Origin: Victivallales bacterium
GTDB lineage: Bacteria > Verrucomicrobiota > Lentisphaeria > Victivallales > UBA1829
Direction: 5' to 3'
DNA length: 62,469 nt
Assembly (NCBI GenBank): GCA_045639325.1
Contig: JAZUCU010000023.1
Span: 1-62,469 of the forward strand
In this document: positions 1-62,469 of the stretch, piece by piece
How positions within the stretch are numbered: the stretch's first letter is position 1
Layout: each line of letters begins with the position of its first letter
The notes under the pieces: generated by a model
Told to the model about the DNA's origin: nothing
Database searches by the model: none
What the model saw: only the letters and a program-made list of their open reading frames with translations
Made by a program: the position numbers and the translations under genes

Positions 1-290
1 AAAATTTGGGGTAAAGACTGGCATCGCCGTTTGGGGCGTTCCGCAAGGAATGGCACATACGGTGATGCCATGAGGTCTCGGATATGTCATTGCCACCACG
101 ATGCCGTCCATTTCTATCGAAAGGCCGTCAACGTGGCGGCTATCATTATGCGCGTTCATTGGGTTTTATCCCCAGGGTTGCGCTACGCTTACCCTGGGCT
201 GTTTGACTCTTTCCGCCCATTCAGGGCTGATTTTGCGATTTATCAATGTTGCTACGGACGGGAAGTTTTTAACTTGTATCATAAAATCTG
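1..290. repeat. Partial copy, truncated by the window edge, of the palindromic repeat element seen complete at 60083-60437
   Basis: Bases ~1-215 align to 60188-60410 (e.g. 'ggaatggcacatacggtgatgccatgag...cattgccaccacgatgccg', and the hairpin 'cccagggt..accctggg'). The track ORFs 31-291 and 101-334 fall inside it and are probably not genes. Confidence 0.6.
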
Positions 291-313
291 ACAAAATCAC
301 TTTTCAAAAATCT

Positions 314-376
314 GAAAATCTTCCGTTCAAATGACGGTTAAAAGCCCTTTTTATGAAAAATTATGGGACATCTGTG
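314..376. repeat. 63-bp repeat 'gaaaatcttccgttcaaatgacggttaaaagcc...atctgtg'; a second copy at 43626-43688 abuts the IS3 transposase remnant
   Basis: Near-identical strings read directly at both loci. A 14-mer core 'gaaaatcttccgtt' also recurs at 8397. Confidence 0.6.
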
Positions 377-9480: not shown

Positions 9481-9580
9481 AAAAAGCCGAACGCTCCCAT
9501 GTATTGCTCAATAGGTTCCGCCAAGCACCTGCACCTCAAAACAAACGAAAGCGTCCGGCAAGTTGTGAAAACACAATCTT
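9481..9580. repeat. Degenerate ~100-bp intergenic repeat; second copy at 42830-42935
   Basis: Shared blocks 'aaaaaa(g)ccgaacgct', 'gaaagcgtccggcaag' and 'cacaatct', roughly 75% identity. Confidence 0.4.
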
Positions 9581-9667
9581 TCCATCAAAGATATTGCCTT
9601 TATGTGCGGATACGAAAATCCCCTCTATTTCTCCAACGCTTTCCGCCATAAATTCGGGGTGTCTCCA

Positions 9668-9724
9668 CGCCGGTTCCGGAAATCCGATATGGGGTAATAC
9701 AATACAGATCACCTTATTTCTTCA
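9668..9724. repeat. Left copy of a ~55-bp direct repeat flanking the 9811-12612 gene; right copy at 12867-12918
   Basis: 'cgccggttccggaaatccgatatgg...agatcaccttatttcttca'. The right copy spans the stop codon of the phosphatase gene (..ELKK*); the left copy carries a remnant '..DTVLKK*' reading frame on the minus strand. Confidence 0.65.
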
Positions 9725-9742
9725 GTACGGTGTCGTCCATAC

Positions 9743-41377: not shown

Positions 41378-42472
41378 TTACTGATTAGCTGCCGGTGCAA
41401 CTGGTGCCGGTGCAGCAGCAGGAGCTTTTGCCTGCGGAACCTTGCGGAATTTGAGCTTGATAATTGTTTTGGAACGATTGTTACGGACCGTGATATTTTT
41501 GGTGACTGTTTTGTAACCTTCTGCTTCCGCAACAACGGTGTGTTTTCCGGCACAAATTTGATTGCCGTTTTCAAATTCATTGCCATCGACTGTGAAAGTT
41601 ACGGTGTCAGCATCGAATTCTTCATCACCTTTAGGACCATCACATTTGAATTCCAACTTGGTCACATAGTAGCTGGCAACTTTTTCTGCAATCTGCTTGA
41701 GAACATCTTCCATCAAATCAGAAGACGGATTGAAACCTTCGCTCTTGGATGCACTGGTCTGGCGACGGCTTGTTTTTCCGACAACATGGAATGCTTTCAG
41801 AACATTACCATTGAAGTCACGGATGTTACCAACAGCTTTCTGCGTGTAAGTTGTCTTTTTGATCAGAGTGTTTGAAACAGAAACAGTAGTAGATTCTGCC
41901 TTGAGGTCCTGCATGATAACAGTCAGGAAAACGCAAGCAGAAGCAATATCCTGCTGATCGTTGCCACTGATTGCTTTTTCAACTTCAGTAAGATTGGCGT
42001 TGGCGCGGTCAATAACCTTGATATATTCGCTATAGGGGTCGAGGAAGCTCTGGAGATAATTTTTGGCAACAACGATATCGCGTTTGTTTTTGTCACCGAT
42101 GATGGATGTACGCAAATTATCAAGAATATTTGCCATTTTTCTGTTTTGACGGGCAATTTCACGCTGCTCTTCGTTGTACTGTCTGATATTGTTGTTAAAG
42201 TTGAAGTTTGCAGATCTTCTTGCAAGTTCCGGATTGACTGCTCTGTCAGCTTCGCTTACTTTGGGGGTGGATGAAACGTTGAACTGTTTGATCTTTGCCA
42301 GAAATTCTTCTGTCTTTGCAATAGAATCAATGGTCCCTACGTCTGCAACCAACAAACAAACTTTGCCGGGATTTTTGTTGACAGGAATCTGGAATTTCTG
42401 TTCTTCTGCGTGCAAACCGGTAATGCCGACAAGCAACGCAAGAGCCGCTGTTTTGATGATTTGTTTTCTCAT
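41378..42472 (-). CDS. Secreted/lipoprotein with C-terminal PEGA domain (paralog A)
   Basis: ORF 41378-42565. The likely start is MRKQIIKTAALALLVGITGLHA (ATG at 42472, AAAGG RBS). The N-terminal half diverges from paralog B. Confidence 0.55.
   Translation of the reverse strand: MRKQIIKTAALALLVGITGLHAEEQKFQIPVNKNPGKVCLLVADVGTIDSIAKTEEFLAKIKQFNVSSTPKVSEADRAVNPELARRSANFNFNNNIRQYNEEQREIARQNRKMANILDNLRTSIIGDKNKRDIVVAKNYLQSFLDPYSEYIKVIDRANANLTEVEKAISGNDQQDIASACVFLTVIMQDLKAESTTVSVSNTLIKKTTYTQKAVGNIRDFNGNVLKAFHVVGKTSRRQTSASKSEGFNPSSDLMEDVLKQIAEKVASYYVTKLEFKCDGPKGDEEFDADTVTFTVDGNEFENGNQICAGKHTVVAEAEGYKTVTKNITVRNNRSKTIIKLKFRKVPQAKAPAAAPAPVAPAANQ
41452..41910. repeat. Second copy of the ~460-bp duplicated segment
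   Basis: See 40333-40790. Confidence 0.8.
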
Positions 42473-43307: not shown

Positions 43308-43439
43308 TGCGCCTAGCCCCTTAGGATGGACAACTTTTTCTAAAAGATTGGTGTAAACGTTCTAGTTTTAATATAACCTCTATTTGCAGAATTGCAAGTG
43401 CCGAAATAGACTTCATCCGGAGTTCTGTATCGCAGAGCA
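43308..43439. repeat. ~130-bp repeat 'tgcgcctagcccc..ggacaactttt..tatttgcag..tccggagttctgta'; second copy at 62131-62251
   Basis: About 85% identity between the two copies. It sits directly 3' of the IS3 transposase remnant. Confidence 0.7.
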
Positions 43440-43450
43440 GAGTGAAATCT

Positions 43451-43642
43451 TCAAGTATTGTAGAAATTCACATAGTGCTGCACGCCGAACCGCAGTTGCG
43501 GCAAGCTGACATAATCCTTGATTTTGATATCTTCGTATTTCAAAGCCCACCAGAAACGCTCCATCTTGGCGTTATCCCGGCAACGCCCGCGCCCATCCAT
43601 GCTAATTTGAATGTTGTGCTTTTGTGAAAATCTTCCGTTCAA
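43451..43642 (-). mobile_element. IS3-family transposase (DDE integrase C-terminus) remnant, truncated
   Basis: ISMDGRGRCRDNAKMERFWWALKYEDIKIKDYVSLPQLRFGVQHYVNFYN matches the OrfB C-terminal motif ..SMSRKGNCYDNAxxESFFxxLKxE...YIxxYN. Only ~60 codons remain, with an alternative start codon. Confidence 0.7.
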
Positions 43643-43688
43643 ATGACGGTTAAAAGCCTCTTTTTTGAAAAATTATGGGATATCTGTG
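43626..43688. repeat. Second copy of the 63-bp repeat at 314-376
   Basis: Read directly. Confidence 0.6.
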
Positions 43689-45378: not shown

Positions 45379-45394
45379 GCTTTCTGAATTATAC

Positions 45395-45437
45395 GGGAGG
45401 ATTTGTTGCATCATGCATCAAATCCTCCCTTTTTTTT
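45395..45437 (+). terminator. Strong rho-independent terminator after dsbD
   Basis: 'gggaggatttg' / 13-nt loop / 'caaatcctccc', followed by T8. Confidence 0.8.
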
Positions 45438-45489
45438 AGCTATTTTCACATTTTTCTTTATTTTTCTTTATTTTTTATTATTTTTCGAT

Positions 45490-45518
45490 TTGACTTTTAT
45501 TTTTTTATACTGTATATT
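45490..45518 (+). promoter_or_regulatory. Near-consensus sigma70-type promoter TTGACT-N17-TATATT in an AT-rich leader of the 45570 operon
   Basis: -35 at 45490-45495 and -10 at 45513-45518. RBS GGAAAGGAG at 45556-45564. Confidence 0.5.
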
Positions 45519-45569
45519 ATTCGTGAAATAATATTAAGGATATAAAAAAATAATTGGAAAGGAGAAAAA

Positions 45570-45902
45570 ATGGATATAAAATTCTATTCTCTGGAAGAAG
45601 TGGCAGACCTTTTTGGCGTCAATTATCAATTGGTCTATAAATTGGTAAAATCAGGCGAATTGCCGTCTGTACGAATCGGCAAAGTATACCGAGTATCAGC
45701 GGCACAGCTGAAAGAATATATGGATCGGCAGAGCCAGGGCAGTCCTGCATCCGGCGTAACAGAATACATTTGCAGCAGCTGTGGGAAAAAATATTATAGT
45801 GCCTTATCGATATCCGGACAATGCAAAGATTGCAGTGCACCGCTGTGCAAAGTATGCGTGGAACACAAACACATCCAATATTGCGAAATTCATCAGAAAT
45901 GA
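45570..45902 (+). CDS. Excisionase/MerR-type HTH (HTH_17) DNA-binding protein with C-terminal Cys-rich zinc-binding tail
   Basis: LEEVADLFGVNYQLVYKLVKSGELPSVRIGKVYRV matches the excisionase-family HTH. C-terminal CxxC...CxxC...CxxC...CxxH. Confidence 0.6.
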   Translation: MDIKFYSLEEVADLFGVNYQLVYKLVKSGELPSVRIGKVYRVSAAQLKEYMDRQSQGSPASGVTEYICSSCGKKYYSALSISGQCKDCSAPLCKVCVEHKHIQYCEIHQK

Positions 45903-45924
45903 TATATGACAGGAGGAAATAAAA

Positions 45925-47802
45925 ATGATCGACAACTGGTTTACTAACAAATGTATGACGCTGGTCGGTGCGAATGGCAGAGCCCTTGCAGGAGAAGCAT
46001 TGGAATTGGCGGAACTGGCATTGCAGGAAGTCAAAGCTGCCAATCACAAAGTCTGGACAGACCGGAATGGTAATTTTTACCACAAAGAACGCAGTCTGTT
46101 CGCATCCGCTCACCCTGTCATGGATCAAAATGGGAATCAGGTCCGGATTTGCGGACGGCTTGTAAAATTCAAAGCAAAATTCTGCAGCAAATGCGGCGGC
46201 ACTGCTCCGGGCAGCTGGTGGAGATGCGGCGGATGCGGCAAAATGATCGGCAGCGAATCCCACACATGTCCTCATTGCGGCAGAGCACAAAATCTGATTG
46301 TCCGCCTGGATCTGACAAACGGCTGCTGGAGAAAAGATGAAGAAATATTTGCAGAACGCTTTGAACTGAACGATATTGCCTCTTTGATCCCCATCGGCCT
46401 GGACGTGCAGGAAAGCCAGAAAGCCATTATTCTCGAAGGTGGCGCTGTGGTCGATGTATTGGATGCCGGCCATTACCCGCTTCCGGATCTCACCAACAAG
46501 GAAGGCGGCGAAAAAAGCGTGGTCATGGTCGACAATGCGGAATTCATCATTCCTGTTAAAGTGGAACAGATTCTGACAAAAGACGACATTGAATCCGATC
46601 TCCATACCGTGATCGTTTTGCGTTTCGCCCCCGCAAAAGCAGAACAATTCATGTGCAATCTGATGGGCAGTGCACTGTACCTGAAAGATGATGCGCTGAC
46701 TGCATCTCTGGGATATGATGAAATTGCACACTGCATTCTTGCGGAAGTCGATGGCGCAGCAAGAGAATTTTGTAACAATACAACGGTTGCCGATCTTTTC
46801 CGTGATGCCGCCACCCGGATCAATCTGGAAAATCACATTGCAAACCGCTTGAAACGTAATATGGATGCCATGGGTATGAGCTTCGTACGACTGAAAGAAG
46901 TCGAATTTGAATCAGAAGTCTTCACCCGCCTCCGCAATATGTCCGGACAGATTGAAATCAAACGCAAAGAAATCGAATTCATGCAGCGTGCCGATGAGCT
47001 TGCCAACGATGCAACCCGTCGGGAAGCCATGAGTGAGCACGAAATGGAAGAATTCATGAAGCAGCTTGCTCAGGAAAAGACCATCAAGGATGATTTGCGT
47101 GCGCAGGAACTCGAACGCATGAGAGTACTCTGGCAGAGACAGAAAGATAAAGAAATCATTTCTCATGAACATGATTTGAATGATCTGACACAGGAAAGAC
47201 AGCACGAATATGATCGCACAGAAGCCAAATTCAAGCACGAAATGCTGGATTTGGATCACAGTAAAGCCATCGAACGCCGTATCAATGAACATAAAGGAAA
47301 TCTGGAATACGAACAGATTGAAAGTCAAATCCAGACCATCAGAATTGACGTTCAGAGAAAAAAAGTTGCCGCAGAACACGAAGCGGCTGCCGGTTGGCTG
47401 AAACTCAAACAGGATAAAAAAGCATTCGACCACAAATTGAAGTTGGAAATGCTCAAAGAAGCGGATAACGTCAACATTCAGGCCTTGCTGATGGCAGAAG
47501 AAGATTCCGATAAACGACGCGACCTGCTTGCTCTGTTTGAATTGCAGCAGCAGACCAAGATGACTCCGGAACTTCTCCTCGCGGCCGCCGCTGCACGGGG
47601 TAATGCCGCTGCCGCAGAAGCTCTGACACATATGGATCAATCCAAACTGGATGCTCTGGAACGGTTCAAGAATGAAAATAAAGCCGTTTATGAACAGATG
47701 CTTCAGATGAGCGAACGCATGTTCAATCAGGCTCTTGACAAAATGGCTCAGACCCGCGATAATTCCCAAAACAATAATTTAACTGCACAGATTATTAAGT
47801 GA
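45925..47802 (+). CDS. Double-zinc-ribbon plus SPFH/Band-7 (flotillin-like) domain protein with long EA-rich coiled coil
   Basis: CSKCGG..CGGCGK..CPHCGR ribbons. SPFH-like core (AIILEGGAVVDVLDAGHY ... MGMSFVRLKEVEFESEV). Flotillin-like coiled coil ending LLAAAAARGNAAAAEAL. Confidence 0.55.
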   Translation: MIDNWFTNKCMTLVGANGRALAGEALELAELALQEVKAANHKVWTDRNGNFYHKERSLFASAHPVMDQNGNQVRICGRLVKFKAKFCSKCGGTAPGSWWRCGGCGKMIGSESHTCPHCGRAQNLIVRLDLTNGCWRKDEEIFAERFELNDIASLIPIGLDVQESQKAIILEGGAVVDVLDAGHYPLPDLTNKEGGEKSVVMVDNAEFIIPVKVEQILTKDDIESDLHTVIVLRFAPAKAEQFMCNLMGSALYLKDDALTASLGYDEIAHCILAEVDGAAREFCNNTTVADLFRDAATRINLENHIANRLKRNMDAMGMSFVRLKEVEFESEVFTRLRNMSGQIEIKRKEIEFMQRADELANDATRREAMSEHEMEEFMKQLAQEKTIKDDLRAQELERMRVLWQRQKDKEIISHEHDLNDLTQERQHEYDRTEAKFKHEMLDLDHSKAIERRINEHKGNLEYEQIESQIQTIRIDVQRKKVAAEHEAAAGWLKLKQDKKAFDHKLKLEMLKEADNVNIQALLMAEEDSDKRRDLLALFELQQQTKMTPELLLAAAAARGNAAAAEALTHMDQSKLDALERFKNENKAVYEQMLQMSERMFNQALDKMAQTRDNSQNNNLTAQIIK

Positions 47803-47812
47803 GGCAGCTATA

Positions 47813-49342
47813 ATGATAATAAAATGTCCCAACTGCTCAAACGAAGTTGAATTTATTCCGGGTGAATGTGAATTCTGCCCGGAATGTGGCAGCGATCTGA
47901 CCGTGCAGGAACAACAGCAACAGGCAACCGATGTTCCACAACAGGAAACCGCCTGCGTGCAAAACAAAGAAGCGGAAGAAACATTTTCCGATCAGGATAC
48001 CATTGCAGCACTGATGGCGAAACTTGCCGAACTGAAGGCTGACAAATCCCGGCAGACCTCCCGCCCTGTTGAAAAAGAAGAAAACTGGGATTTATCTGCA
48101 AAATCAAAAATGATTGCGGATGATATTGATTCCTTTGATATTTTCAGCACTTCTTCCAGCACATGCAAGCAGCTGAAAGTGGAATACAACCACAATCTCC
48201 ATTTCTTAACTGGATCTCAGGCCGTTATCCAGCTCAGACTGACTCCCCTTGATGATCAGCTGAAAGATTTGATGATCTTTATGGAGACAGAACGGAATGG
48301 CGACCATACAAGACGTCAGATTCCGATCCGGGAAATATTGAGAAAAAACCGTTCCTTCTCGCTGCAGATCCCCTTCAATCCGGAAAATACATTCGGTAAA
48401 GCATTTTTTATATTTTACATCGGCTGCAAAATTGATAAAACATTCAAGTATTATCAGTTCTCCGTAAATCACACAGTATACGATTCCAAGCAGTCCGGAA
48501 ATGCTATTATCAAGGACATCACGATCAATCAGGAGTTCTCCGCCCAGCATGCCGCAGATATCAATTACCGCGATAACTTCGGCGAGGCAATGAAGAAATT
48601 GGCGGATAAAAACCTGACCGTCAACGAACTGATCGACCGCTTGAATGCCATGCCGCCCAATTTCTGCGAACAGGATCTCATTGAAACAACGTGGAGACCC
48701 GAGGATATACTTGTCAAAGGCAATTTATACCGCGCCGATAAACTCATTCTTGAGTACGAAGGCAAGTCATTAATCCTCATCAATAAACCGAAAGTGGTCT
48801 TCGGCAGAGACCGGAACCAGGCCGACCTGCTTGTCCGATGCGGACAGGGTAAACTCGGGCAGATGGAATACCCCAATTCCACCGTCAGCAGAAAACATGC
48901 AGAAATTCTTTATTGCGATGACACCGTAAAGCTCTTCGATCACAGTTCTTACGGAACCTATATCAACGGGAAAAAACCCGATGGCCCCGGTATTCCGTTA
49001 GCTCTGACTGCAAATGTTGAATTCGGCGACATCTGCTGGGAAATGAATATACAGCAATGTGCAGGCCGGGTGCCGCACAATATCTGCCAGACATGTACGG
49101 CAAATAAAGTCAAATCGGTCACCTTCAAAAGAAAAGATAAGGAACCGGAATATTATCTGCTGATCTGGCAATGCTGTGAGCTCGGCAGATTGATCGAAGA
49201 TTTGACCGACTGGACCATTTTTACCAGAGATGATTCATTCTTTATCCGGACGCCGGACCAGGATTTCCACTATTTGCGCCCCGGTCAACCCATTACTTAC
49301 AACAACAAAACTTTTAACGTAAAATATTTTTATCAAGCTTAA
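47813..49342 (+). CDS. Zinc-ribbon plus FHA domain protein
   Basis: N-terminal CPNCSNEV...CPECGS. C-terminal FHA pattern VVFGRDRNQADLLV...VSRKHAEILYCDDTVKLFDHSSYGTYINGKK. Confidence 0.65.
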   Translation: MIIKCPNCSNEVEFIPGECEFCPECGSDLTVQEQQQQATDVPQQETACVQNKEAEETFSDQDTIAALMAKLAELKADKSRQTSRPVEKEENWDLSAKSKMIADDIDSFDIFSTSSSTCKQLKVEYNHNLHFLTGSQAVIQLRLTPLDDQLKDLMIFMETERNGDHTRRQIPIREILRKNRSFSLQIPFNPENTFGKAFFIFYIGCKIDKTFKYYQFSVNHTVYDSKQSGNAIIKDITINQEFSAQHAADINYRDNFGEAMKKLADKNLTVNELIDRLNAMPPNFCEQDLIETTWRPEDILVKGNLYRADKLILEYEGKSLILINKPKVVFGRDRNQADLLVRCGQGKLGQMEYPNSTVSRKHAEILYCDDTVKLFDHSSYGTYINGKKPDGPGIPLALTANVEFGDICWEMNIQQCAGRVPHNICQTCTANKVKSVTFKRKDKEPEYYLLIWQCCELGRLIEDLTDWTIFTRDDSFFIRTPDQDFHYLRPGQPITYNNKTFNVKYFYQA

Positions 49343-49357
49343 GAAAGGAAGACAACA

Positions 49358-50095
49358 ATGAAAAAAAATCTGTTTCTCAGCACCATCTGCATGGCCGTTT
49401 TTATGCTCCTGCAGGGCTGCACTCTGGTAACACCTCAACCTCTTTCCAATGACAATGCCCGGGGAGTTCCGGTTCCCATGCATACGTATGGAAATATTAC
49501 TCTGTTCGAAGAATTGCGCGCACCTCTGCAAGTCTCCGTAACAACCGAAGATCCCGCCTTAATCAATACCATGCGGAAATATCTGCAACAGTCTGATATC
49601 AATTGCGCAGCACCCGGTGCTCCCTTTGACATCCGGGTCAATATCAATTCCATGTATCACGAATTGACTCCGGCTCCGAAATGCCGTCTTTCCAACACCA
49701 CAATCATTTCTGTGTCTGCCCCCGACGGCACAAAGATTTCAAAAGACTGGAAACAGAAAACGGTAAATCAGCAGGGATTCGCAACGGCTGAAATTGCAAA
49801 AGCAAAACTCAAACCCATGATTGCAAAAAATATCAAACTGTGGGAACAGAATTATTTCCGCAAAGAAGCCGGTGGCCGTTTGAATGTCGCAGTCCTGCGT
49901 TTCAAAATGTCAAAAGCCTGGATCGAACTCAACCCGATCCAGTTTGAAAAAGATATTATGAAAGTCAATAAACATCTGCGCAAAATCAAGAATGTCGCCG
50001 ATGTACGTATGATCGAAGTCGATAAAAAATCCAGAATTGTCTCATTCCGCATTCTCTGCATCGATCACGTCAATTTCAAAAACGCTCTCAAATAA
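49358..50095 (+). CDS. Lipoprotein of unknown function
   Basis: Lipobox LLQGC. No recognisable domain. Confidence 0.5.
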   Translation: MKKNLFLSTICMAVFMLLQGCTLVTPQPLSNDNARGVPVPMHTYGNITLFEELRAPLQVSVTTEDPALINTMRKYLQQSDINCAAPGAPFDIRVNINSMYHELTPAPKCRLSNTTIISVSAPDGTKISKDWKQKTVNQQGFATAEIAKAKLKPMIAKNIKLWEQNYFRKEAGGRLNVAVLRFKMSKAWIELNPIQFEKDIMKVNKHLRKIKNVADVRMIEVDKKSRIVSFRILCIDHVNFKNALK

Positions 50096-50125
50096 AATTA
50101 AGATAACAAAGAAGGAAACACGAAT

Positions 50126-50917
50126 ATGAAGAAAATCAATTTACTTTTTGCCGCTGCAGCTCTCACATTCTGCTTCGGATGTGGCGGAGATATCACCGTC
50201 GAGCCCCAGCCCACACTCCCACCGCTGCCGCCCGCTCCTGCACCCGTCACCATAACAACGCAGGCAGATGCTAATTTCACGGTTGCAAGTGAAACCAATA
50301 CAAAACTGCGTGCAGATTTCAAATGGAACAACTCCGAAGCGAATTTCAGCTGTAAACTGGCTGAACGTCTTGCGGATCAAATTGTGATTCAGAATGCAGA
50401 TCTCACCATGAATGGTAAATGCGATGTAACAATTATCATCATGCCCGAATTCGAATTGAAAGATAAAACCGGCAATTATTACCGCATTAACTGCAATCAG
50501 ATCAAGGTCTCTCTGGTCATGGCGCAGAAAACCGGTGCTATAAAAGTTATCGAACTCAAACCGATGCCCCGTAAACTGGGAATCGAACAGGCGAAAAATC
50601 AGTACCTCACCCCGGCTGTTAAAAAACTCGTCCCGTTCCTGCGCAAGGAATTGACAAGACTCAGCAATGAAGAGGTCGCCGTCGGCATCGTAAATTTTGC
50701 TCTGGCTAACATTCAGGAACAGCCCTCCTCTGAAAAAGTTGCCAAAGAAGTTGAAAGAATTGCCGATATTATGAAAAATATGAACGGAATCATCAACTAC
50801 ACTGTGATCCGGCAGGATGTGAACAAAGCACAATGCACATACCGGGTGGTTTACCTGAGAGAAAAATTCCCCCAGGGACTCAGAAACGCTCTCAACTTGA
50901 AACTTGCCAACAAATAA
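50126..50917 (+). CDS. Lipoprotein of unknown function
   Basis: Lipobox CFGCGG, followed by a Pro-rich linker. Confidence 0.5.
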   Translation: MKKINLLFAAAALTFCFGCGGDITVEPQPTLPPLPPAPAPVTITTQADANFTVASETNTKLRADFKWNNSEANFSCKLAERLADQIVIQNADLTMNGKCDVTIIIMPEFELKDKTGNYYRINCNQIKVSLVMAQKTGAIKVIELKPMPRKLGIEQAKNQYLTPAVKKLVPFLRKELTRLSNEEVAVGIVNFALANIQEQPSSEKVAKEVERIADIMKNMNGIINYTVIRQDVNKAQCTYRVVYLREKFPQGLRNALNLKLANK

Positions 50918-50932
50918 CATAAAACGGAGATT

Positions 50933-52093
50933 TTGAAAATGAAAAAGTTTTTTATTACTCTTGCAGCATTCATCTTGACGGCTGCCGCCGCATTCGCCAA
51001 TGATGAAAAGATTATTACGGATGAAGATATCAGACAGGCCATTTACGGTGCTTTGGATAAAGCCGCCGCTGAACTGAAAAACGCAAACCTGGGCAAAGCT
51101 CCCATTGCTGTTTACGCATCAAAACAATATCAGATGATCCTTTCCGGTCGTCTCAAAACCATGCTGAACAATGCCGGTTATACCTGCATCGAAGAAAAAG
51201 ATGATCCTTTCTGGAATGAATTGATCAACCGGATCGAATGGAATGAACGCAAAGAAGATATCCTTGATCCGACAACCATTATGAAATTCGGTAAATTGAA
51301 AGCCGCAAAAGTCCTCTTCCAGTGCTATATCCGCCACATCGATAAAAACTCCGATCGCGTATATGTGGAACTCGATTTGCGTGCAACTGAAATCAATACT
51401 GCTAAAAACCTCTGGAGCACAACAGTCTCTCACCGCCACTATATCGGCGAAAAAGTCCAGGGTATCGTTGCCATTGATAATAATCTGGCTGAACTCCTTA
51501 AAAAGAATTTCCAATTCGCTCATCAGTCTCTGATTTCCCAGTTCTACACCGAAAAACTCAAAAATGTCAGAAATATTGCCGTGATTCCTCTCAGCGGCGA
51601 TGTCGCTTCCTACCTCACGCAGTTGACGATCGAAATGATCTCACGCACAAAATATCTCCCGAAACATTCCCCCATCCCCTCTCTGGCAGAAGCACGTATT
51701 GCCGTACGTGACAAACAGCTGGGCAGCGATGCCATCTGCTTCGGTTCTGTCCGTTCCCTCCATACAACAAGACCCGTTGAAACAATCCAGTATGAGAAAA
51801 AAACAATGGTCTACTCATGGAATGTTGTTGCTGATATCCAGATTTTTATCGAAGACACCAAAGGAAACATTCTCTGGAGTGCTGCAATCCGCCTGAATGA
51901 ACCTGTTGTATCAGAAAGAGCAATGACCCCAGATGAAATTAAAAAATATGCTCCTTCCAGTATCATGGTATGGTTTTACAATAACTGGGGACTCTGTTTG
52001 CTGATCGCAGGCGGCTTTGTTGGCGCAATTGTCCTTATCATCTGCCTCACCATTGCATTCAAAGCGATTATCCTTTACAATCACGTAAGATAA
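50933..52093 (+). CDS. Secreted protein with two CsgG/LpoB-like repeats and a C-terminal TM anchor
   Basis: Signal peptide, then IAVYASKQYQ... and IAVIPLSGDVASYLTQL... repeats. C-terminal WGLCLLIAGGFVGAIVLIICLTIAF. Confidence 0.4.
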   Translation: MKMKKFFITLAAFILTAAAAFANDEKIITDEDIRQAIYGALDKAAAELKNANLGKAPIAVYASKQYQMILSGRLKTMLNNAGYTCIEEKDDPFWNELINRIEWNERKEDILDPTTIMKFGKLKAAKVLFQCYIRHIDKNSDRVYVELDLRATEINTAKNLWSTTVSHRHYIGEKVQGIVAIDNNLAELLKKNFQFAHQSLISQFYTEKLKNVRNIAVIPLSGDVASYLTQLTIEMISRTKYLPKHSPIPSLAEARIAVRDKQLGSDAICFGSVRSLHTTRPVETIQYEKKTMVYSWNVVADIQIFIEDTKGNILWSAAIRLNEPVVSERAMTPDEIKKYAPSSIMVWFYNNWGLCLLIAGGFVGAIVLIICLTIAFKAIILYNHVR

Positions 52094-52116
52094 CAACAAC
52101 TCCGGGGGCCCTGATA

Positions 52117-53244
52117 ATGAGTGATTATGATTGGAAGAAGGAACGGGAAAAATTCCGTACAAACTTGACATCTGCCGCTTCACAGAAAACAGAAAACGCC
52201 AATGGCAATTTTTCCACTGCAGATACCGCAGGTAAAAAGATTGCCGGAAAAGGTGGACTGCGGCTTGTCATAGCGGGTTTTCTTGTTCTTCTTGCCGTTG
52301 GAATCTGGATGTTTGTCTCGCACAATTCCAATAACAGCACTGCCGCATTTGTCAAGGTTGCGGAACAGAAAAAAAAGGCTCTCGGACTTGTTGTACTGGT
52401 TATCGAAACAAAGGATCATCAAAAAGTTTCTTTGCCTTGCGGTACGGCCTGGGCTTTTTCTGACAAGCAGTTCGCGACCAATGGACATGTTGCCGCAGGT
52501 ATACAAGAAACATTGGCTGATTTTATCGCAAACAATGCCAACGAACTGCTGGCACAGGAGGCAAAAAAAAACAACTGCCAATCCGTTGATGATTACCTGA
52601 AGAAACTCGGCGAACAGAAAGCCGGAGAAACGGTAAAAAGCGCAACGCAATTCGTTATCAGCAAAATCAGCAGCGTCCAGGCAGAAATCATCATTAACGG
52701 CACAAAAAAACAGAGCTATACCGTGACCCATGTCCAAATACACAAAGGATATGGCGCTGTCGATACAAAATTCGATCCCGATGTGGCTGTCCTGACAATC
52801 AAAGAAAAGCATGACTGTTATTTCTCTATCGCAGATCAGAAAACTTTGGGAAATCTCAAATCCGGTATCCCCGTTGCATTCCTCGGTTTCCCGACAGAAG
52901 GTTTGCGGCAGGATAATGTGAACATTGATAACCCCATCGCATCCATGCAAACCGGGATCATTGTCGCCGTCAGCGACTTTGAAATGAAAGACGCGGGGCA
53001 ATCCGGCAATTTCCTCATCCGTCACAGCCTGCCTGCAACCGGTGGCGCAAGCGGATCTCCCATTTTCAACCAGAAAGGGGAAGTCCTTGCCTTGCTTTAT
53101 GCGGGGAATGTAATCGGACAAATCAACGCTGACGGCAAAGTACAGCGTGCTCCCTCCGCCGCCATGATCAATTTCGGCGTCCGCGTGGATTTGATTTCAG
53201 GCATGGCAGCTCCCGTTGCCATAGAAAAATTCTTAAGTCTTTAA
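52117..53244 (+). CDS. Membrane-anchored (N-in) trypsin-like serine protease (S1/trypsin_2-like)
   Basis: Catalytic triad context TNGHVAAG (His), DVAVLTI (Asp), GASGSPIF (Ser). N-terminal cytoplasmic motif MSDYDWKKEREK, then a TM helix. Confidence 0.7.
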   Translation: MSDYDWKKEREKFRTNLTSAASQKTENANGNFSTADTAGKKIAGKGGLRLVIAGFLVLLAVGIWMFVSHNSNNSTAAFVKVAEQKKKALGLVVLVIETKDHQKVSLPCGTAWAFSDKQFATNGHVAAGIQETLADFIANNANELLAQEAKKNNCQSVDDYLKKLGEQKAGETVKSATQFVISKISSVQAEIIINGTKKQSYTVTHVQIHKGYGAVDTKFDPDVAVLTIKEKHDCYFSIADQKTLGNLKSGIPVAFLGFPTEGLRQDNVNIDNPIASMQTGIIVAVSDFEMKDAGQSGNFLIRHSLPATGGASGSPIFNQKGEVLALLYAGNVIGQINADGKVQRAPSAAMINFGVRVDLISGMAAPVAIEKFLSL

Positions 53245-53265
53245 CATTCTTTTAACGAGGCAAAA

Positions 53266-55170
53266 ATGAAAGAATATAACTGGCGTGAAGAACGCAAAAA
53301 CAGATACTCCAACACCCCACACGCAAATGGAAATAATGCAGGAGGATACTCCACTCCCCCCGCCTCAAGCGGCGGCGGCAATGCATTAAAAATCATTCTC
53401 TTCCTCATCATCCTTGCAGGTATTGGCGGCGCAGGATTTTATTATTTCAACAAAAAATCAACCGTTCTCCCGCTTGCTCCCGCACCCGCTGCATATTCTG
53501 TAAACACTCCTGTTGCATCGCAATCGCTTCCGACTCCCGTTGCAAGTGATTCTCCGGCAAAGGAATATGTTCTGCCGGAAATCACAGTACATTACCAGAG
53601 CGGCCCCACTGAAAATGATGAGTACGGTATTATGAATGTGTACGAATCCGGAAAAAGAAAGCAGCTCAAAGCTCCGGCTGTCACGGATGAAGAATTGAGC
53701 AATCATAAGCATAAAAATGCTCTTCTCCAACTGAAGAATAATGCCGTTAACACGCTCAAATTCTTCGCCGGCACATTCGATTATCGTTCTTATGATAACA
53801 AGAACGGTTCTTACAAAATGCATTACACCATTAAAGAATGCACCATTGATCAGAACGGGAAAAAAACTGTTGAAAGCGTAAATAACGCTTATGAACATGC
53901 TGACCCGCTTGGTAATGGCATATTTGATATACACTTTGCTTTTTCTCCCGAAAATATTCATCAGGATACTGTCACTCACGAATTTACCCATGCCGTCACA
54001 GATTACAGAATTAACGATGGCGATAGGAGCACTTTGATTTACGCAGGTCATTCCGGTGCACTCCATGAATCGTTTTCTGATATTTTTGCCTGTCTCCATC
54101 ATATCGAAACAAATCCGGGTTTAACCAGAGAACAGCGTTGGAGTTTTGCAAATGGATCCCGGGATCTTGCAAATCCGGGATCAAAAGTCTCATACGCCGG
54201 CGCCAGATATCCATCTTACTACAAGCAGAATGATGAAAACGGAAAATGGCTTGATCCTTCATCAAATCGTGACGGGGGATATGTACACCATAATATGTCC
54301 GTCCTCTGTAAATTTGCATATCTGATTTGCGAAGGTGATACATTCCGCGGTCAGACGATCAAACCTATGGGGCATATCAAAACCAGAAAACTCTTCTGGC
54401 AGCTTCAGGACAGCAATTATATTGACGTTGCACAGCATTTTGATAATCTCGCAGACAAGATCATTTTTGCCGCAAATGATGCAAAGTTCAGTGAAGATGA
54501 TCTGGTTAATATCAAAAATGCATGTCTGGCTGTCAATCTGCCGATCGATGACAAAATTCTGCAGCTTTTTGATTCCTATGAGAAACAGAATAATACAGGA
54601 AAATTCTCTGCTTCTCTTAAATATGCCTTTACGCCAAAAGCAGTAACAGAAAATGTCCGGATCAATTCAGAAGAGACATTCCGGAACCTGTTCAAAGGCG
54701 AAGAAATCGGAAAAATCTTTGTGAAGCAGAGCGGCGTAAGTGCAAATCCCGGTAGCGATGCCTATAAATATACTGCCCGGAATGTTTCATCCCTGCCGAA
54801 TGCGTTTGGCAGTGGCAGCAGCAAATATTATCAGACAACGCAATGTGTTTCCAATATCCCCGTCTTTGCATCTTCCGCAGTCGTCAGAGTCGATCAGAAA
54901 GGCGAAGTTACACGCTTCAGCAAAAACTTCTCCAGCCGCGCAAAAAACACAAGCATCACACTCAAGTCGTTCCCCGATTCTCTCAAAAAAGAGGTGTTGA
55001 AAAATCAGGAAGTCCGGAATGTCAGCAACTATATCTTTGACCCGGCTCTGCTCCGTATGAAAGGTGCTCCCACCGTCGTCTGGATGGTGGATACACCCGC
55101 CCATCGCTACCTGATCGATCAGAAAAGCGGTAAGGTCGTTTATGACTACCCGCTGATTATTAAAGACTAA
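53266..55170 (+). CDS. Membrane-anchored (N-in) thermolysin-like M4 zinc metalloprotease with an extra C-terminal domain
   Basis: VTHEFTHAVTDY...GALHESFSDIF matches thermolysin (HELTHAVTDY...GAINEAISDIF). N-terminal motif MKEYNWREERKN plus a TM helix. The last ~110 aa are paralogous to the 55180 lipoprotein. Confidence 0.75.
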   Translation: MKEYNWREERKNRYSNTPHANGNNAGGYSTPPASSGGGNALKIILFLIILAGIGGAGFYYFNKKSTVLPLAPAPAAYSVNTPVASQSLPTPVASDSPAKEYVLPEITVHYQSGPTENDEYGIMNVYESGKRKQLKAPAVTDEELSNHKHKNALLQLKNNAVNTLKFFAGTFDYRSYDNKNGSYKMHYTIKECTIDQNGKKTVESVNNAYEHADPLGNGIFDIHFAFSPENIHQDTVTHEFTHAVTDYRINDGDRSTLIYAGHSGALHESFSDIFACLHHIETNPGLTREQRWSFANGSRDLANPGSKVSYAGARYPSYYKQNDENGKWLDPSSNRDGGYVHHNMSVLCKFAYLICEGDTFRGQTIKPMGHIKTRKLFWQLQDSNYIDVAQHFDNLADKIIFAANDAKFSEDDLVNIKNACLAVNLPIDDKILQLFDSYEKQNNTGKFSASLKYAFTPKAVTENVRINSEETFRNLFKGEEIGKIFVKQSGVSANPGSDAYKYTARNVSSLPNAFGSGSSKYYQTTQCVSNIPVFASSAVVRVDQKGEVTRFSKNFSSRAKNTSITLKSFPDSLKKEVLKNQEVRNVSNYIFDPALLRMKGAPTVVWMVDTPAHRYLIDQKSGKVVYDYPLIIKD

Positions 55171-55179
55171 GGAGTTTTT

Positions 55180-55830
55180 ATGATACAATCAATTTTTTCA
55201 ATTGCCGCACTCGCCGTTATGATGCTGTTCATCGGTTGTGATAAGAAAACACCGATTGCTCCGGCAGAACCGGAAAAGAAAGCACCTGCAAAACAAATAC
55301 AGTTGAACGCACTGCTTCAATTCAAAGATCCGGAAATGAAAAAGCTGTTTGCAGAAAAGAAAATCGATCTGCAGAATCTCTCCGTTTCCGGCAAAAAAGA
55401 TTTGGAAAAACTCTTTGGAAATATCATAGAATGTAACGTCAGAGAAAAACCGGCAAGTATCGGTGCCAAAGATAAAACTTTCTTTATCGATCAGAATGTG
55501 AAAGGAATCCCCGTGTACGCTGCAACCGCTGTCCTGCGTTGCAGTGCGGATGGTAAAGTGAAATATTTCAGCTGTAATTTCTCTTCTGCTGCATTGAAAC
55601 TGCAGGCAAAGCCCCGCAAGCTCACGCCGGAACTTCAAACCAAACTTTTCGGAAAAACAAAAACAACCTGTAATGGTGATATGATTTTCGATCCCGTACT
55701 GGTCAATCTGAAAGGCAACACCGCTCTGACGTGGAAATTTACAAACGATATGGAAGTCGTACTGATTGATCAAACAACGGAAAAGAAAGTCTTTGTTCTG
55801 CCCCTTTCCACTTCCATGAAAGCGTTGTAA
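55180..55830 (+). CDS. Lipoprotein paralogous to the C-terminal domain of the M4 protease
   Basis: Lipobox FIGC. IPVYAATAVLRCSADGKVKYFSCNFSS / IFDPVLVNLKGNTALTWKF / VLIDQTTEKKVF align to VFASSAVVRVDQKGEVTRFSKNFSS / IFDPALLRMKGAPTVVWMV / YLIDQKSGKVVY of the protease. Confidence 0.55.
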   Translation: MIQSIFSIAALAVMMLFIGCDKKTPIAPAEPEKKAPAKQIQLNALLQFKDPEMKKLFAEKKIDLQNLSVSGKKDLEKLFGNIIECNVREKPASIGAKDKTFFIDQNVKGIPVYAATAVLRCSADGKVKYFSCNFSSAALKLQAKPRKLTPELQTKLFGKTKTTCNGDMIFDPVLVNLKGNTALTWKFTNDMEVVLIDQTTEKKVFVLPLSTSMKAL

Positions 55831-55923
55831 TACCGGACACAGCATTTTTTTTCTTGCAGAAATTTGAAATATATCACTTCAGGGAGTATATTACTGTATA
55901 TTGATAAACTCTTTTGAGGAGGT

Positions 55924-59963: not shown

Positions 59964-60082
59964 AAAATGCCTCTTCGACGTTTTGTTCCATAAAATCAAA
60001 TCTTATTTGAGTTTAATATTCTCTGAAATTTATGCCTTTTCGATTTTAAATACCCTCGGATTTATACAAGAAAAGAACTCAA

Positions 60083-60437
60083 CGTCCGAATAAGCTGAGA
60101 TGAATCTAGAACCAGTGCCAACGGCACGGCACAGTACAGCCCAGGGTGAAGCGTCAGCGAGAACCCTGGGTATAAGACATCGAACTACATTGATTAAGAC
60201 CGGCATTGACGGATATGGCGTTCCGGTACGGAATGGCATATTCGTCAATGCAATGAGTTTCGGGGTCCATCATTGCCACCACGATGCCGCCTGTTTCTTA
60301 CGAAACGCCGTCAACGCGGTGGCTGTCATTATGCAAATTCAAAGGACTTATACCCAGGGTTACGCTTCGCTCACCCTGGGCTTTACTGTGCCGTGCCGTT
60401 GGCACTGGTTTTAGATTTATCTCTGCATTTACGGACA
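60083..60437. repeat. ~350-bp imperfect palindromic element: ~100-bp inverted arms (including a perfect 26-bp core) around a ~165-bp centre; MITE-like or structured-RNA candidate
   Basis: 'aaccagtgccaacggcacggcacagt' (60109-60134) is the exact reverse complement of 60385-60410. Arm similarity extends out to ~60083 and ~60437. Internal hairpins 'cccagggt..accctggg'. A partial copy lies at 1-290. Confidence 0.65.
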
Positions 60438-60637
60438 GATTAGTTTTATGTGCGCCATCGGACTTTTTCAAATCCGTCTTTCAACTTATTGTACTTTTAT
60501 ACTCACTTATGGCATAAACCGTCGATGAACCCAAAATCCGCATAAAATCTCCACAAATTCTCCGCTATAAGAGGTCACCAGACCTCCGCCGGAGAAAGAA
60601 AAGCACTTGGAACACATTGTATTACAACAGTGGTGTA

Positions 60638-62130: not shown

Positions 62131-62251
62131 TGCGCCTGCCCCCATGGGCTGGACAACTTTTATAAAAAATTGGTGTAAATGCTCTTGTTTTAATATAGCA
62201 TCTATTTGCAGGATTGCAAATACCAAAATAAACTTCGTCCGGAGTTTTGTA
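62131..62251. repeat. Second copy of the ~130-bp 'ggacaac' repeat (first copy at 43308-43439)
   Basis: Read directly. Lies in the upstream region of the 60638-62110 gene. Confidence 0.7.
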
Positions 62252-62290
62252 CGGAGATTAACGGAGAATAACGGAGATTAACGGAGGAGG
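62251..62290. repeat. Tandem 10-bp repeat (acggagaTTA x ~4) with two inverted 'tctccgt' units at 62364-62380
   Basis: 'acggagattaacggagaataacggagattaacggagg', then 'gattctccgtacttctccgt' 75 bp downstream. Confidence 0.5.
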
Positions 62291-62399: not shown

Positions 62400-62469
62400 A
62401 CTGGTGCTGACCGACCGGACTTCGCCTGAAGGCTTCCGCTTCGCTCACCCTGGCTTGTCACGGCGTAAT
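62400..62469. repeat. Possible diverged arm of the palindromic element, truncated by the window end
   Basis: 'ggcttccgcttcgctcaccctggc' resembles the arm motif 'cgcttcgctcaccctggg' of the 60083-60437 element. Confidence 0.3.

What the first reader, a model, noticed from the sequence alone, without database searches (positions are those of the whole stretch)
60083..60437. Large imperfect palindrome (MITE-like element or structured RNA) between convergent genes, with a second partial copy at the window start
A 26-bp perfect inverted repeat (60109-60134 / 60385-60410) is extended by weaker complementarity to ~100-bp arms. The arms enclose ~165 bp that contains nested hairpins (cccagggt-N12-accctggg). 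A diverged copy of the central part and right arm lies at 1-215. The arms look like terminal inverted repeats of a non-autonomous transposon (MITE). Alternatively the locus could encode a long hairpin RNA or a bidirectional terminator for the aas-like and metallopeptidase genes. I do not recognise it as a known RNA family.
Basis: seen in the sequence. Interest (0 to 1): 0.6.

Follow-up and report, generated by a model that had tools for sequence, protein, structure and literature searches.

The report
Mobile palindromic repeat of gut Lentisphaeria
The palindrome is one copy of a roughly 500-560-bp non-coding, hairpin-forming mobile repeat that is scattered through Lentisphaeria genomes, and its arms contain the motif that Rfam lists as the "Acido-Lenti-1 sRNA"; it is a new family of an ordinary kind of element (MITE/REP-like).

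Summary
The region folds far better than shuffled sequence (z about -19 on both strands), and a partial second copy lies at the window start.

The element is larger than reported: 59969-60531 (563 nt). Both ends are fixed by two independent lines, family alignments and breaks in homology with related strains.

- **Architecture:** a 132-nt asymmetric core of three hairpins (60198-60329) sits between long inverted arms. Each arm carries an outward-facing two-hairpin module.
- **Rfam match:** the module in this copy's arms matches RF01687 Acido-Lenti-1 (39.1 and 36.9 bits; gathering score 37).
- **Copy number:** one sheep-colon Lentisphaeria MAG holds at least 26 copies, mostly at contig ends. 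The window itself starts and ends inside family fragments.
- **Mobility:** seven contigs from 99.2-99.5 % identical strains lack copy A, and homology resumes exactly at its terminus (window 377). This is an insertion polymorphism.

There is no conserved reading frame, no G·U strand bias across the palindrome and no promoter in the core. I found no clear target-site duplication and no autonomous partner.

Best reading: a non-autonomous MITE/REP-like repeat, possibly also terminating transcription. It is unusual in that the core is better conserved than the mosaic arms.

The parts
59969..60531 (.). Complete element, copy B (563 nt), lying between the stop codon of the Aas-like gene (59963) and the 3' end of the 490-aa gene (60638).
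   Evidence: Left end: homology with the 88 % relative L167 stops at 59968. Right end: homology with the 92 % relatives L162-L166 stops at 60532. Both agree with the termini shared by family copies L008, L019, L021 and L023.
59969..60056 (.). Left outer module, starting with the terminal sequence GCCTCTTCGACGTTTTGTTCCATAA. It is only weakly complementary to the right outer module.
   Evidence: The first 48 nt are also present after the Aas-like gene in the 97.5 % strains L168-L170, which then diverge.
60057..60176 (.). Left inner arm of the palindrome.
   Evidence: Pairs with 60347-60476 at 101 matched positions. In L030 the element starts at the position equivalent to 60057.
60114..60170 (-). 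Acido-Lenti-1 module in the left arm, reading outward: hairpin P1 at 60140-60170 and hairpin P2 at 60115-60127.
   Evidence: RF01687, 39.1 bits (gathering score 37), E 2.5e-7, full model 1-46; coordinates.
60198..60329 (+). Asymmetric 132-nt core closed by GAC/GTC. It holds three hairpins: H1 60203-60251, Hm 60250-60276 and H2 60275-60323.
   Evidence: Consensus fold of 14 copies. Always 130-132 nt long and 87-95 % identical between copies, against 69-91 % for the arms. No Rfam match.
60347..60476 (.). Right inner arm of the palindrome.
60353..60406 (+). Acido-Lenti-1 module in the right arm, reading outward: hairpin P1 at 60353-60380, and hairpin P2 at 60393-60405 followed by TGGTTTTAG.
   Evidence: RF01687, 36.9 bits, just under the gathering score of 37, E 9.5e-7. 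The consensus scan flags the extended P2 stem, 60388-60405, as terminator-like.
60477..60531 (.). Right outer module, ending ...TTATGGCATAAACCGTCGATGAAC(C).
   Evidence: 92-93 % identical to L023 and L019 up to this point, with unrelated flanks beyond it.
1..376 (+). Copy A: core plus right arm, cut by the start of the contig. Its right terminus is ...TTATGGGACATCTGTG at 376. This copy is absent from near-identical strains.
   Evidence: Empty site in L171-L177; for L171-L174 homology (99.2-99.5 %) starts at window 377.
43625..43688 (-). Solo 64-nt terminal module of the family (CACAGATATCCCATAATTTTTC...).
   Evidence: 94 % identical to window 313-376; the terminus is shared with more than 20 ends in the MAG.
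62430..62469 (+). Arm fragment (...CACCCTGGCTTGTCACGGCGTAAT) at the end of the contig.
   Evidence: 92.7 % identical to the L009 right arm; sequence read.

Best explanation
The locus is one copy of a family of non-autonomous, interspersed palindromic repeats. The family is MITE-like and also has REP/BIME-like and BOX-like mosaic features. It occurs in gut and rumen Lentisphaeria.

Shown:
- The family is multi-copy.
- Its ends are sharply defined and shared between copies.
- It is non-coding.
- At least one copy in this genome (copy A) is a recent insertion that is missing from near-identical strains.
- Each arm carries an outward-facing module of two local hairpins (P1, a conserved linker, P2) followed by a T-rich tail. 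The hairpins are kept by compensatory changes. This is the Rfam Acido-Lenti-1 architecture.

Inferred:
- The element is moved in trans by an enzyme encoded elsewhere in the genome. That enzyme would recognise the conserved termini (CACAGATATCCCATAA in two arm types, GTTCATCGACGGTTTATGCCATAA in this copy's type), the subterminal hairpins, or both.
- It lands in AT-rich intergenic DNA, often just past a gene's terminator.
- No target duplication is visible in the one copy with two intact ends of the same type. I therefore lean slightly towards a hairpin-recognising or single-strand mechanism of the RAYT/HUH kind over classical DDE cut-and-paste. This preference is weak.
- When a neighbouring gene reads through the element, the far arm presents P2 plus a T-run, so the element probably also ends such transcripts. 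I regard this as a tolerated or useful by-product, not its origin.
- Recombination between copies explains the mosaic arms and the loss of synteny at both ends of copy B.
For: Copy number and dispersal.
- A genome-wide scan with a core 20-mer found 34 loci, 26 of them in a single MAG (Lentisphaeria bacterium RGIG5364). Most lie within 100 nt of a contig end, the signature of a repeat that breaks assemblies.
- The 8 loci from other phyla share only the 20-mer.
- The window starts and ends in family fragments and holds a solo end at 43625-43688.

Sharp termini.
- More than 20 ends begin CACAGATATCCCATAA with unrelated, AT-rich flanks.
- Five ends of this copy's type stop at ...CGTCGATGAAC.

Mobility.
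- In L171-L174 (99.2-99.5 % identical) homology starts exactly at window 377, one base after the terminus of copy A. There the fmt and MFS genes are only 210 nt apart.
- L175-L177 are also empty.

Boundaries of copy B. Independent relatives lose homology at 59968 and at 60532.

Not coding and not strand-specific.
- Variable columns in the core fall at codon positions 1, 2 and 3 in the ratio 9:22:14.
- G·U counts and fold energies of whole elements are equal on the two strands.

Arm modules.
- RF01687 hits in both arms, here and in L008 and L021.
- Compensatory changes: P2 pair 49:61 is C-G in 10 arms and U-A in 10; pair 50:60 is C-G in 12 and G-C in 8. Two P1 pairs also change on both sides.
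- The two arms of one copy can carry different P2 stems.

The Rfam seed behaves as a repeat. In Lentisphaera araneosa the seed sequences occur in same-strand arrays with periods of 74, about 110-115 and 192-200 nt, and in alternating -/+ pairs.
Against: - No target-site duplication. In L009 the flanks are ...CTTTTTTT[element]AAAATAAAA. Copy B has AAAAT on both sides, but relatives that lack the element also carry AAAAT at each of those two places.
- No full-length element with these ends and a transposase gene was found in the 170 kb of MAG loci or in the window.
- The centre is better conserved than the arms. This is the opposite of the usual MITE pattern and hints that the core has a function of its own.
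- The left junction of copy A could not be seen, because the contig starts inside the element.
- The metagenome and MAG assemblies could be chimeric at repeats.
Confidence: 0.75

Rival explanations
1. The element is a structured non-coding RNA gene. Either the whole roughly 350-nt hairpin or the 132-nt three-hairpin core is the functional product, and the family is a multi-copy RNA gene family rather than mobile DNA.
For: - The fold is extremely stable.
- The core is length-invariant and 87-95 % conserved between two genomes that otherwise share no alignable DNA.
- The core has three stacked hairpins, a few compensatory changes and conserved G·U pairs, and is on average 2.8 kcal/mol more stable on the + strand.
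- Rfam classes the arm motif as an sRNA.
Against: - No promoter-like site lies in or next to the core on either strand.
- Whole elements fold equally well on both strands and have equal numbers of G·U pairs.
- Copies are polymorphic between 99.5 % identical strains and have transposon-like sharp ends.
- Arms occur alone, in tandem, or with other partners.
- Covariation in the core is minimal because the copies are too similar, and they are not independent.
- No Rfam family matches the core.
Confidence: 0.12
2. Its primary, selected role is as a bidirectional transcription terminator or mRNA 3'-end stabiliser for the convergent Aas-like and 490-aa genes.
For: - Each arm ends with a G+C-rich hairpin P2 followed by CTTGTTTTAC or CTGGTTTTAG, pointing outward.
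- The right-arm P2 is flagged as terminator-like.
- P2 stems vary freely while keeping their pairing, as terminator stems do.
- Copies often sit at gene 3' ends, directly after terminator-like hairpins and T-runs (flanks).
Against: - Relatives manage without it. L167 has only about 139 nt after the Aas-like gene, and the 490-aa gene keeps its own hairpin plus T-rich stretch at 60571-60600, which is shared with relatives that lack the element.
- Copy A lies upstream of a gene, not between convergent genes.
- A 563-nt mosaic with a conserved core is far more than a terminator needs.
- The left-arm tail (TGGTTCTAGATTC) is a poor U-tract.
Confidence: 0.1
3. The 132-nt core is itself a small mobile unit, for example a remnant of an IS200/IS605-type element with hairpins near both ends. 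On this view it inserted into the centre of pre-existing palindromic (REPIN-like) Acido-Lenti-1 doublets.
For: - The same core is combined with at least four different arm types.
- The core is asymmetric, with imperfect hairpins at both ends.
- In Lentisphaera araneosa, inverted Acido-Lenti-1 pairs exist with only about 94 nt between them, and no core 12-mers occur in their flanks.
Against: - No palindrome without a core ('empty' doublet) was found in the window or the loci. Every P1 hairpin detected lies 64-102 nt from a core. The loci were, however, selected for having the core.
- Complementarity between the arms fades gradually into the core rather than stopping at a sharp core boundary.
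- H1 and H2 are not similar to each other, as the left-end and right-end hairpins of IS200/IS605 elements are.
Confidence: 0.08

Closest known systems
Rfam RF01687, Acido-Lenti-1 RNA motif (Weinberg et al. 2010, PMC2864571)
   Same: - Both arms of this copy match the full 46-position model: two hairpins and a conserved linker (GGCU..U.UGCCGU), at 39.1 and 36.9 bits.
- The phylum is the same (Lentisphaerae).
- The motif is multi-copy and not tied to particular genes.
   Different: - Rfam describes a free-standing 46-nt 'sRNA'. Here the motif is a module inside each arm of a 500-560-nt mobile palindrome with a conserved 132-nt core, which is absent from the published flanks.
- P1 has a 12-15-nt loop in place of about 4 nt.
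- The other arm types of the family have longer linkers and do not reach E 0.01.
Bacterial MITEs, for example the Correia elements (CREE/NEMIS) of Neisseria
   Same: - It is short, non-coding and multi-copy, with terminal inverted repeats.
- It is intergenic or lies at gene 3' ends, and it folds into a long hairpin if transcribed.
- Copies show presence/absence polymorphism between strains.
- The comparison with Correia elements rests on general knowledge.
   Different: - It is 3-5 times longer, with arms of 150-230 nt instead of about 26 nt.
- No TA or other target duplication is visible, and no parent IS is known.
- The interior is better conserved than the ends.
REP / BIME / REPIN elements with their RAYT transposases (Bertels & Rainey 2011, PMC3116915)
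   Same: - The basic unit is a local imperfect hairpin that occurs singly, in same-strand arrays and as inverted doublets able to form a larger hairpin.
- The architecture is mosaic, and no target duplication is made.
   Different: - There is no GTAG or CGTC tag next to the hairpin.
- The unit is much larger.
- No RAYT gene was seen.
- The doublet encloses a conserved structured core rather than a short spacer.
BOX elements of Streptococcus pneumoniae
   Same: The build is modular: different modules are combined, one of them can be repeated in tandem (arm units in L002 and L034), and the predicted secondary structure is stable. The comparison rests on general knowledge.
   Different: The sequence and host phylum are unrelated, and BOX elements are not long palindromes around a unique core.

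Membership tests
Rfam RF01687 Acido-Lenti-1 | Covariance-model score at or above the gathering score (37 bits) over the full model | tested here: met
   The left arm (60114-60170, - strand) scores 39.1 bits over model positions 1-46. The right arm scores 36.9 bits, just below the cut-off. L021 scores 41.1, L008 scores 37.3 and 34.3. The default-filter gathering run on the whole window missed these hits.
Rfam RF01687 Acido-Lenti-1 | Two hairpins (P1, P2) supported by compensatory changes, joined by a conserved linker | tested here: met
   In 20 arms, two P2 pairs switch between C-G and U-A (10/10) and between C-G and G-C (12/8). Two P1 pairs show changes on both sides.
Rfam RF01687 Acido-Lenti-1 | It acts as a trans-acting small RNA (Rfam type 'Gene; sRNA') | not testable with these tools
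   No expression data are available. No promoter was found. The seed itself occurs in arrays and inverted pairs, as a DNA repeat would.
MITE | Short (under about 800 bp) and without coding capacity | tested here: met
   Copies are 500-563 nt. Four of six core frames have stops in nearly all copies, and variation in the two open frames is not concentrated at third codon positions.
MITE | Terminal inverted repeats with ends conserved between copies | tested here: met
   In L009 the arms are 148 and 180 nt and 88 % complementary. More than 20 ends share the terminus CACAGATATCCCATAA. In copy B the outermost 55-88 nt pair only weakly.
MITE | Many dispersed copies in one genome | tested here: met
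   At least 26 core-bearing loci occur in MAG RGIG5364. The 62-kb window holds two core-bearing copies and two fragments.
MITE | Evidence of transposition: filled versus empty sites | tested here: met
   Copy A is absent from seven contigs of 99.2-99.5 % identical strains, and the breakpoint falls exactly at the element terminus. Only the right junction is visible.
MITE | Target-site duplication flanking the element | tested here: inconclusive
   L009 shows none. Copy B has AAAAT on both sides, but AAAAT is native to each flank in relatives that lack the element. The left junction of copy A is missing.
MITE | An autonomous IS with the same ends that encodes the transposase | tested here: not met
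   No inverted pair of these termini lies more than 600 nt apart. No multi-copy coding repeat occurs in the loci. The window ORFs scanned gave no transposase hit. The IS3-type remnant at 43308-43620 appears, by eye, to have different ends. Only about 230 kb of these genomes could be searched.
REPIN / RAYT system | An inverted doublet of REP hairpins, each tagged by a conserved GTAG or CGTC tetranucleotide | tested here: not met
   An inverted doublet of hairpin modules is present. By eye, no GTAG or CGTC tag adjoins P1 or P2 in the arm alignment. The tag definition is taken from the abstract of PMC3733652.
REPIN / RAYT system | A cognate RAYT (IS200-like Y1 transposase) gene in the genome, usually flanked by the repeats | not tested
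Intrinsic (Rho-independent) terminator | A G+C-rich hairpin directly followed by a U-tract, placed at a gene 3' end | tested here: inconclusive
   The extended right-arm P2 stem at 60388-60405 plus TGGTTTTAGA is flagged as terminator-like. The scan found 2 such sites in the region against 1.0 expected. The T-rich tail is conserved in most arms. The left-arm tail is poor.

The most novel reading that the evidence does not exclude
The 132-nt three-hairpin core is a functional structured nucleic acid in its own right. It has an invariant length, is better conserved than the arms, is shared at 87-95 % identity by genomes with no other alignable DNA, and is absent from Rfam. It could be the cis-acting recognition structure of a hairpin-binding (single-strand) transposase or recombinase, or a non-coding RNA cargo spread by the element. 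On this reading the Rfam 'Acido-Lenti-1 sRNA' would be the terminator-like arm module of a previously unrecognised class of hairpin-capped mobile elements in the PVC superphylum.
Probability: 0.2. Interest if true: 0.6.

Novelty: new member of a known kind. Interest (0 to 1): 0.33.

Why it matters
- **Reinterpreting an Rfam family.** The finding gives a concrete genomic explanation for an orphan Rfam family. At least in these Lentisphaeria, Acido-Lenti-1 is a module of a mobile palindromic repeat rather than a stand-alone sRNA. This is consistent with the arrays and inverted pairs already visible in the published seed alignment.
- **Assembly and genome variation.** These repeats break metagenome assemblies of gut Lentisphaeria; the window is bounded by them. 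They also mark sites of strain-level insertion polymorphism and loss of synteny. This matters for binning, for strain typing and for reading gene order in this poorly cultured group.
- **An unusual conservation pattern.** The centre is more conserved than the ends. That makes the family a reasonable place to look for a mobilising enzyme that recognises hairpins. By itself, though, this is an ordinary class of element.

Tried and rejected
1. **Metagenome scan wasted.** The pattern GCCACCACGATGCN{16,30}CCGTCANCG returned 120 loci, all of them chance matches in G+C-rich soil contigs.
2. **Viral contigs.** The core 20-mer gave one chance match inside a coding region, and the terminus pattern gave nothing.
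3. **Plasmid and phage collections.** No match in distant mode.
4. **Rfam at default filters.** The gathering-threshold run on the whole window found nothing. The arm hits appear only with the more permissive filters. Nothing matches the core.
5. **tRNA or tmRNA-like genes.** None in the window.
6. **Small-protein hypothesis for the 104-aa ORF 60100-60414.** Rejected. The frame is open in 13 of 14 copies, but variation is highest at second codon positions.
7. **Single-strand RNA hypothesis for the long hairpin.** Rejected. There is no G·U or energy asymmetry between the strands.
8. **Clean empty site for copy B.**
   - Orthologues of the 490-aa gene (L155-L160, L162-L166) and of the Aas-like gene (L167-L170) were fetched, but in no relative are the two genes neighbours. 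Only the breakpoints were obtained, not an empty site.
   - The homologue search with the Aas-like C-terminus returned nothing above 55 % identity. The exact-cluster look-up was what found the close strains.
10. **Core and terminus k-mers in the flanks published by Weinberg et al. 2010.** The core is absent, and the terminus hits are in alignments of other motifs and look like chance.
11. **The IS3-type remnant at 43308-43620 as the parent element.** Rejected. By eye its end (TGGACAACTTTT...) differs from the family termini.
12. **Literature.** No paper linking Lentisphaerae with MITEs or REPs was found.

Full report
**1.

- The repeat finder reports arms 60084-60149 / 60371-60436 (66 nt, 89 % complementary) and a perfect 15-nt pair 60162-60176 / 60347-60361.
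- Window 60070-60450 folds at -218.8 kcal/mol on the + strand, against -108 +/- 5.7 for shuffles (z -19.5). The - strand gives -215 (z -18.5).
- The nested hairpin CCCAGGGT-N-ACCCTGGG occurs three times in the window against none expected.
- The second copy at the window start is real: 82 % column identity, and it shares an exact 20-mer that is expected zero times by chance.

**2. It is a dispersed repeat family**

- A scan of one genome per species with the core 20-mer returned 34 loci.
  - 26 come from one sheep-colon MAG, Lentisphaeria bacterium RGIG5364. Most sit within about 100 nt of a contig end, which is how an assembly-breaking repeat looks.
  - The 8 loci from other phyla share nothing but the 20-mer.
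  - L030 is a 1.8-kb contig binned as Acutalibacteraceae. It carries an 89 % identical copy and is probably mis-binned.
- The window is not from that MAG. Outside the element the two share only a few roughly 70-nt stretches that lie in paralogous genes.
- The window contig starts inside copy A. It ends (62430-62469) inside an arm fragment. It also holds a solo 64-nt terminal module at 43625-43688.

**3. Anatomy**

- *Core.* Alignment of 24 copies shows a central asymmetric core, GACCGGCATTG...GGTGGCTGTCAT, at window 60198-60329.
  - It is always 130-132 nt long and 87-95 % identical in all pairs, while the flanking arms are 69-91 % identical.
  - Its consensus fold is three adjacent hairpins closed by GAC/GTC: H1 60203-60251, Hm 60250-60276 and H2 60275-60323. 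Only four pairs show compensatory changes, because the copies are too alike.
- *Arms.* They come in at least four types and can be duplicated in tandem (L002 1-340, L034).
  - Oriented outward, all arms share one plan: hairpin P1 (CCCAGGGT...ACCCTGGG), a conserved linker, a short G+C-rich hairpin P2 of variable sequence, then CTTGTTTTAC or CTGGTTTTAG.
  - P2 is kept by compensatory changes. One pair is C-G in 10 arms and U-A in 10. Another is C-G in 12 and G-C in 8. Two P1 pairs also change on both sides.
  - The two arms of one copy can carry different P2 stems, as in L009. The local hairpins are therefore maintained, not only the pairing between arms.

**4. The arm module is a known Rfam motif**

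- With permissive filters cmscan finds RF01687 Acido-Lenti-1 in both arms over the full model. The hit at 60114-60170 (- strand) scores 39.1 bits (gathering score 37). The hit at 60353-60406 (+ strand) scores 36.9 bits. The default-filter run had missed both.
- The same holds for copies of this arm type in the MAG: L021 scores 41.1, L008 scores 37.3 and 34.3. Arm types with longer linkers do not score.
- Weinberg et al. 2010 say only that the motif occurs in Acidobacteria and Lentisphaerae and sometimes lies near group II introns.
- Their seed coordinates show that in Lentisphaera araneosa the motif forms same-strand arrays with periods of 74, about 110-115 and 192-200 nt. It also forms alternating -/+ pairs. 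This is the behaviour of a genomic repeat.
- Their published flanks do not contain this core. Nothing in Rfam matches the core.

**5. Ends and mobility**

- More than 20 ends in the MAG and the window begin CACAGATATCCCATAA, with unrelated AT-rich flanks that are often a terminator-like hairpin plus a T-run.
- Ends of copy B's type stop at ...CCGTCGATGAAC in five copies.
- Exact-cluster look-ups found contigs of close relatives.
- *Copy A.* Four contigs, L171-L174, are 99.2-99.5 % identical to window 377-1818.
  - Homology starts exactly at 377, one base after ...TTATGGGACATCTGTG.
  - In those strains the fmt and MFS genes are only 210 nt apart, with the sequence ...CCCAGAAATATC^ATAAATTTTTATCG.
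  - Three further contigs, L175-L177, are also empty.
  - This is a filled/empty polymorphism with the breakpoint at the family-defined terminus. It argues for real insertion and against misassembly.
- *Copy B.* The 88 % relative L167 loses homology at 59968, and the 92 % relatives L162-L166 lose it at 60532.
  - The element is therefore 59969-60531, as the family alignment predicts.
  - In those relatives the Aas-like gene and the 490-aa gene are not neighbours, so the element sits at a synteny break.
  - The 97.5 % strains L168-L170 share the first 48 nt of the element after the Aas-like gene. They then carry a different arm type before their contigs end. Either recombination between copies or assembly ambiguity could explain this.

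**6. What it is not**

- *Coding.* Four of six core frames have stops in nearly all copies. In the two open frames, variation is not concentrated at third codon positions (9:22:14).
- *Strand-specific hairpin RNA.* Five whole elements have the same energy and the same number of G·U pairs on both strands. Only the core shows a small + strand advantage, a mean of 2.8 kcal/mol from non-independent copies.
- *Promoter.* No promoter-like site lies in the core. One weak site faces inward in the right outer module.
- *Other.* There is no tRNA-like gene and no similarity to plasmids, phages or viral contigs.
- *Transposase in the window.* The 15 of about 40 ORFs that were scanned gave no transposase hit. 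They encode carbohydrate-use enzymes, regulators and transporters. Translation of 43440-43600 on the - strand gives a C-terminal remnant that I recognise as an rve-type transposase, and by eye its IS end differs from the family termini.

**7. Open points**

- *Target-site duplication.*
  - L009, the one copy with two intact ends of the same type, has ...CTTTTTTT on one side and AAAATAAAA... on the other, with no direct repeat.
  - Copy B has AAAAT on both sides, but each flank already carries AAAAT in relatives that lack the element.
  - The left junction of copy A is outside the contig.
- *Autonomous partner.* None was found in about 230 kb.
- The mobilising enzyme is therefore unknown. Its mechanism, a DDE enzyme or a hairpin- or single-strand-recognising enzyme, remains an inference.

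**8. Interpretation**

- The best-supported reading is a non-autonomous mobile palindromic repeat. It is MITE-like, with the modular, array-forming habits of REP/BIME and BOX elements.
- Its arm module is the Rfam Acido-Lenti-1 motif.
- Because P2 plus its T-run faces outward in both arms, read-through from either neighbouring gene would meet a terminator-like signal in the far arm. Relatives without the element show that it is not required.
- The unusual feature is that the structured 132-nt core is conserved better than the ends. This leaves room, at about 20 % in my estimate, for the core to be a functional RNA or single-strand DNA structure.
- Overall this is a new family of a known kind of element. 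It is of modest interest, mainly as a reinterpretation of an orphan Rfam family and as a cause of assembly breaks and strain variation in gut Lentisphaeria.

Noticed in passing
window 43308-43620 (- strand) and 62131-62251: C-terminal remnant of an rve / IS3-type transposase (SMDGRGRCRDNAKMERFWWALKYE...). Its IS end at 43308-43429 is repeated at 62131-62251 (84 % identity). By eye its terminus (TGGACAACTTTT...) differs from the termini of the palindromic family.
   Followed up: partly
window 43625-43688 (- strand): A solo 64-nt terminal module of the repeat family, 94 % identical to window 313-376. It directly abuts the truncated transposase remnant, which suggests insertion into an IS copy, or deletion next to one.
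   Followed up: partly
window 1819-9742: A 7.9-kb segment (a 1439-aa GH42-like protein, an alpha-L-fucosidase, an AraC-type regulator and others) is missing from the 99.5 % identical strains L171 and L172. There the MFS gene is followed directly by sequence matching window 9743 onward. This is a strain-variable glycan-use island.
   Followed up: no
window 45379-55846: About 10.4 kb present here and in the 97.5 % strains L168/L169 (whose contigs reach back only to window 47150) is absent from the 88 % relative L167. In L167 the DsbD-like gene is followed almost directly by the LysM gene and the Aas-like gene.
   Followed up: no
L162-L166 (last about 100-200 nt) and L156 5560-5740: In relatives, the orthologue of the 490-aa gene is 754 aa long. 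It is followed by a different repeat rich in GCTTCA(T/C)A...GGAATGAAATGGAG units, and all five contigs end in it. Its first bases (GCGTTCTCGGGAG...CTCATAATATGAG) vaguely resemble the terminus of this copy's arm type.
   Followed up: no
window 6947-7015, 19234-19302, 21646-21721, 32054-32129: Repeats of about 70 nt (77-86 % identical) at the 5' ends of four paralogous genes of roughly 250 aa. They are probably the prepilin-type N-terminal methylation region that is common in PVC bacteria, and they also match L167 and several MAG loci.
   Followed up: no
window 40324-40944 and 41447-42064: The adjacent 370-aa and 395-aa genes share a 620-nt stretch at 87 % identity (a tandem paralogous pair). 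Their Pfam hits are weak (the 395-aa gene: PEGA 21.4 bits, just above its 20.8 cut-off; both genes: Phage_tube_C below its cut-off).
   Followed up: no
Homologues are confined to Lentisphaeria-type metagenome contigs.
   Followed up: partly
L002 1-340 and L034 120-340: In the RGIG5364 MAG the arm unit (P1, a 30-nt insert, the linker, P2 and the tail; about 122 nt) is duplicated in tandem next to a core. This echoes the 110-115-nt arrays of Acido-Lenti-1 in Lentisphaera araneosa.
   Followed up: partly
window 62240-62290: A short tandem run of AACGGAGA(T/A)T-like units (gtacggagattaacggagaataacggagattaacggagg) lies between the IS-end remnant and the arm fragment at the contig end.
   Followed up: no
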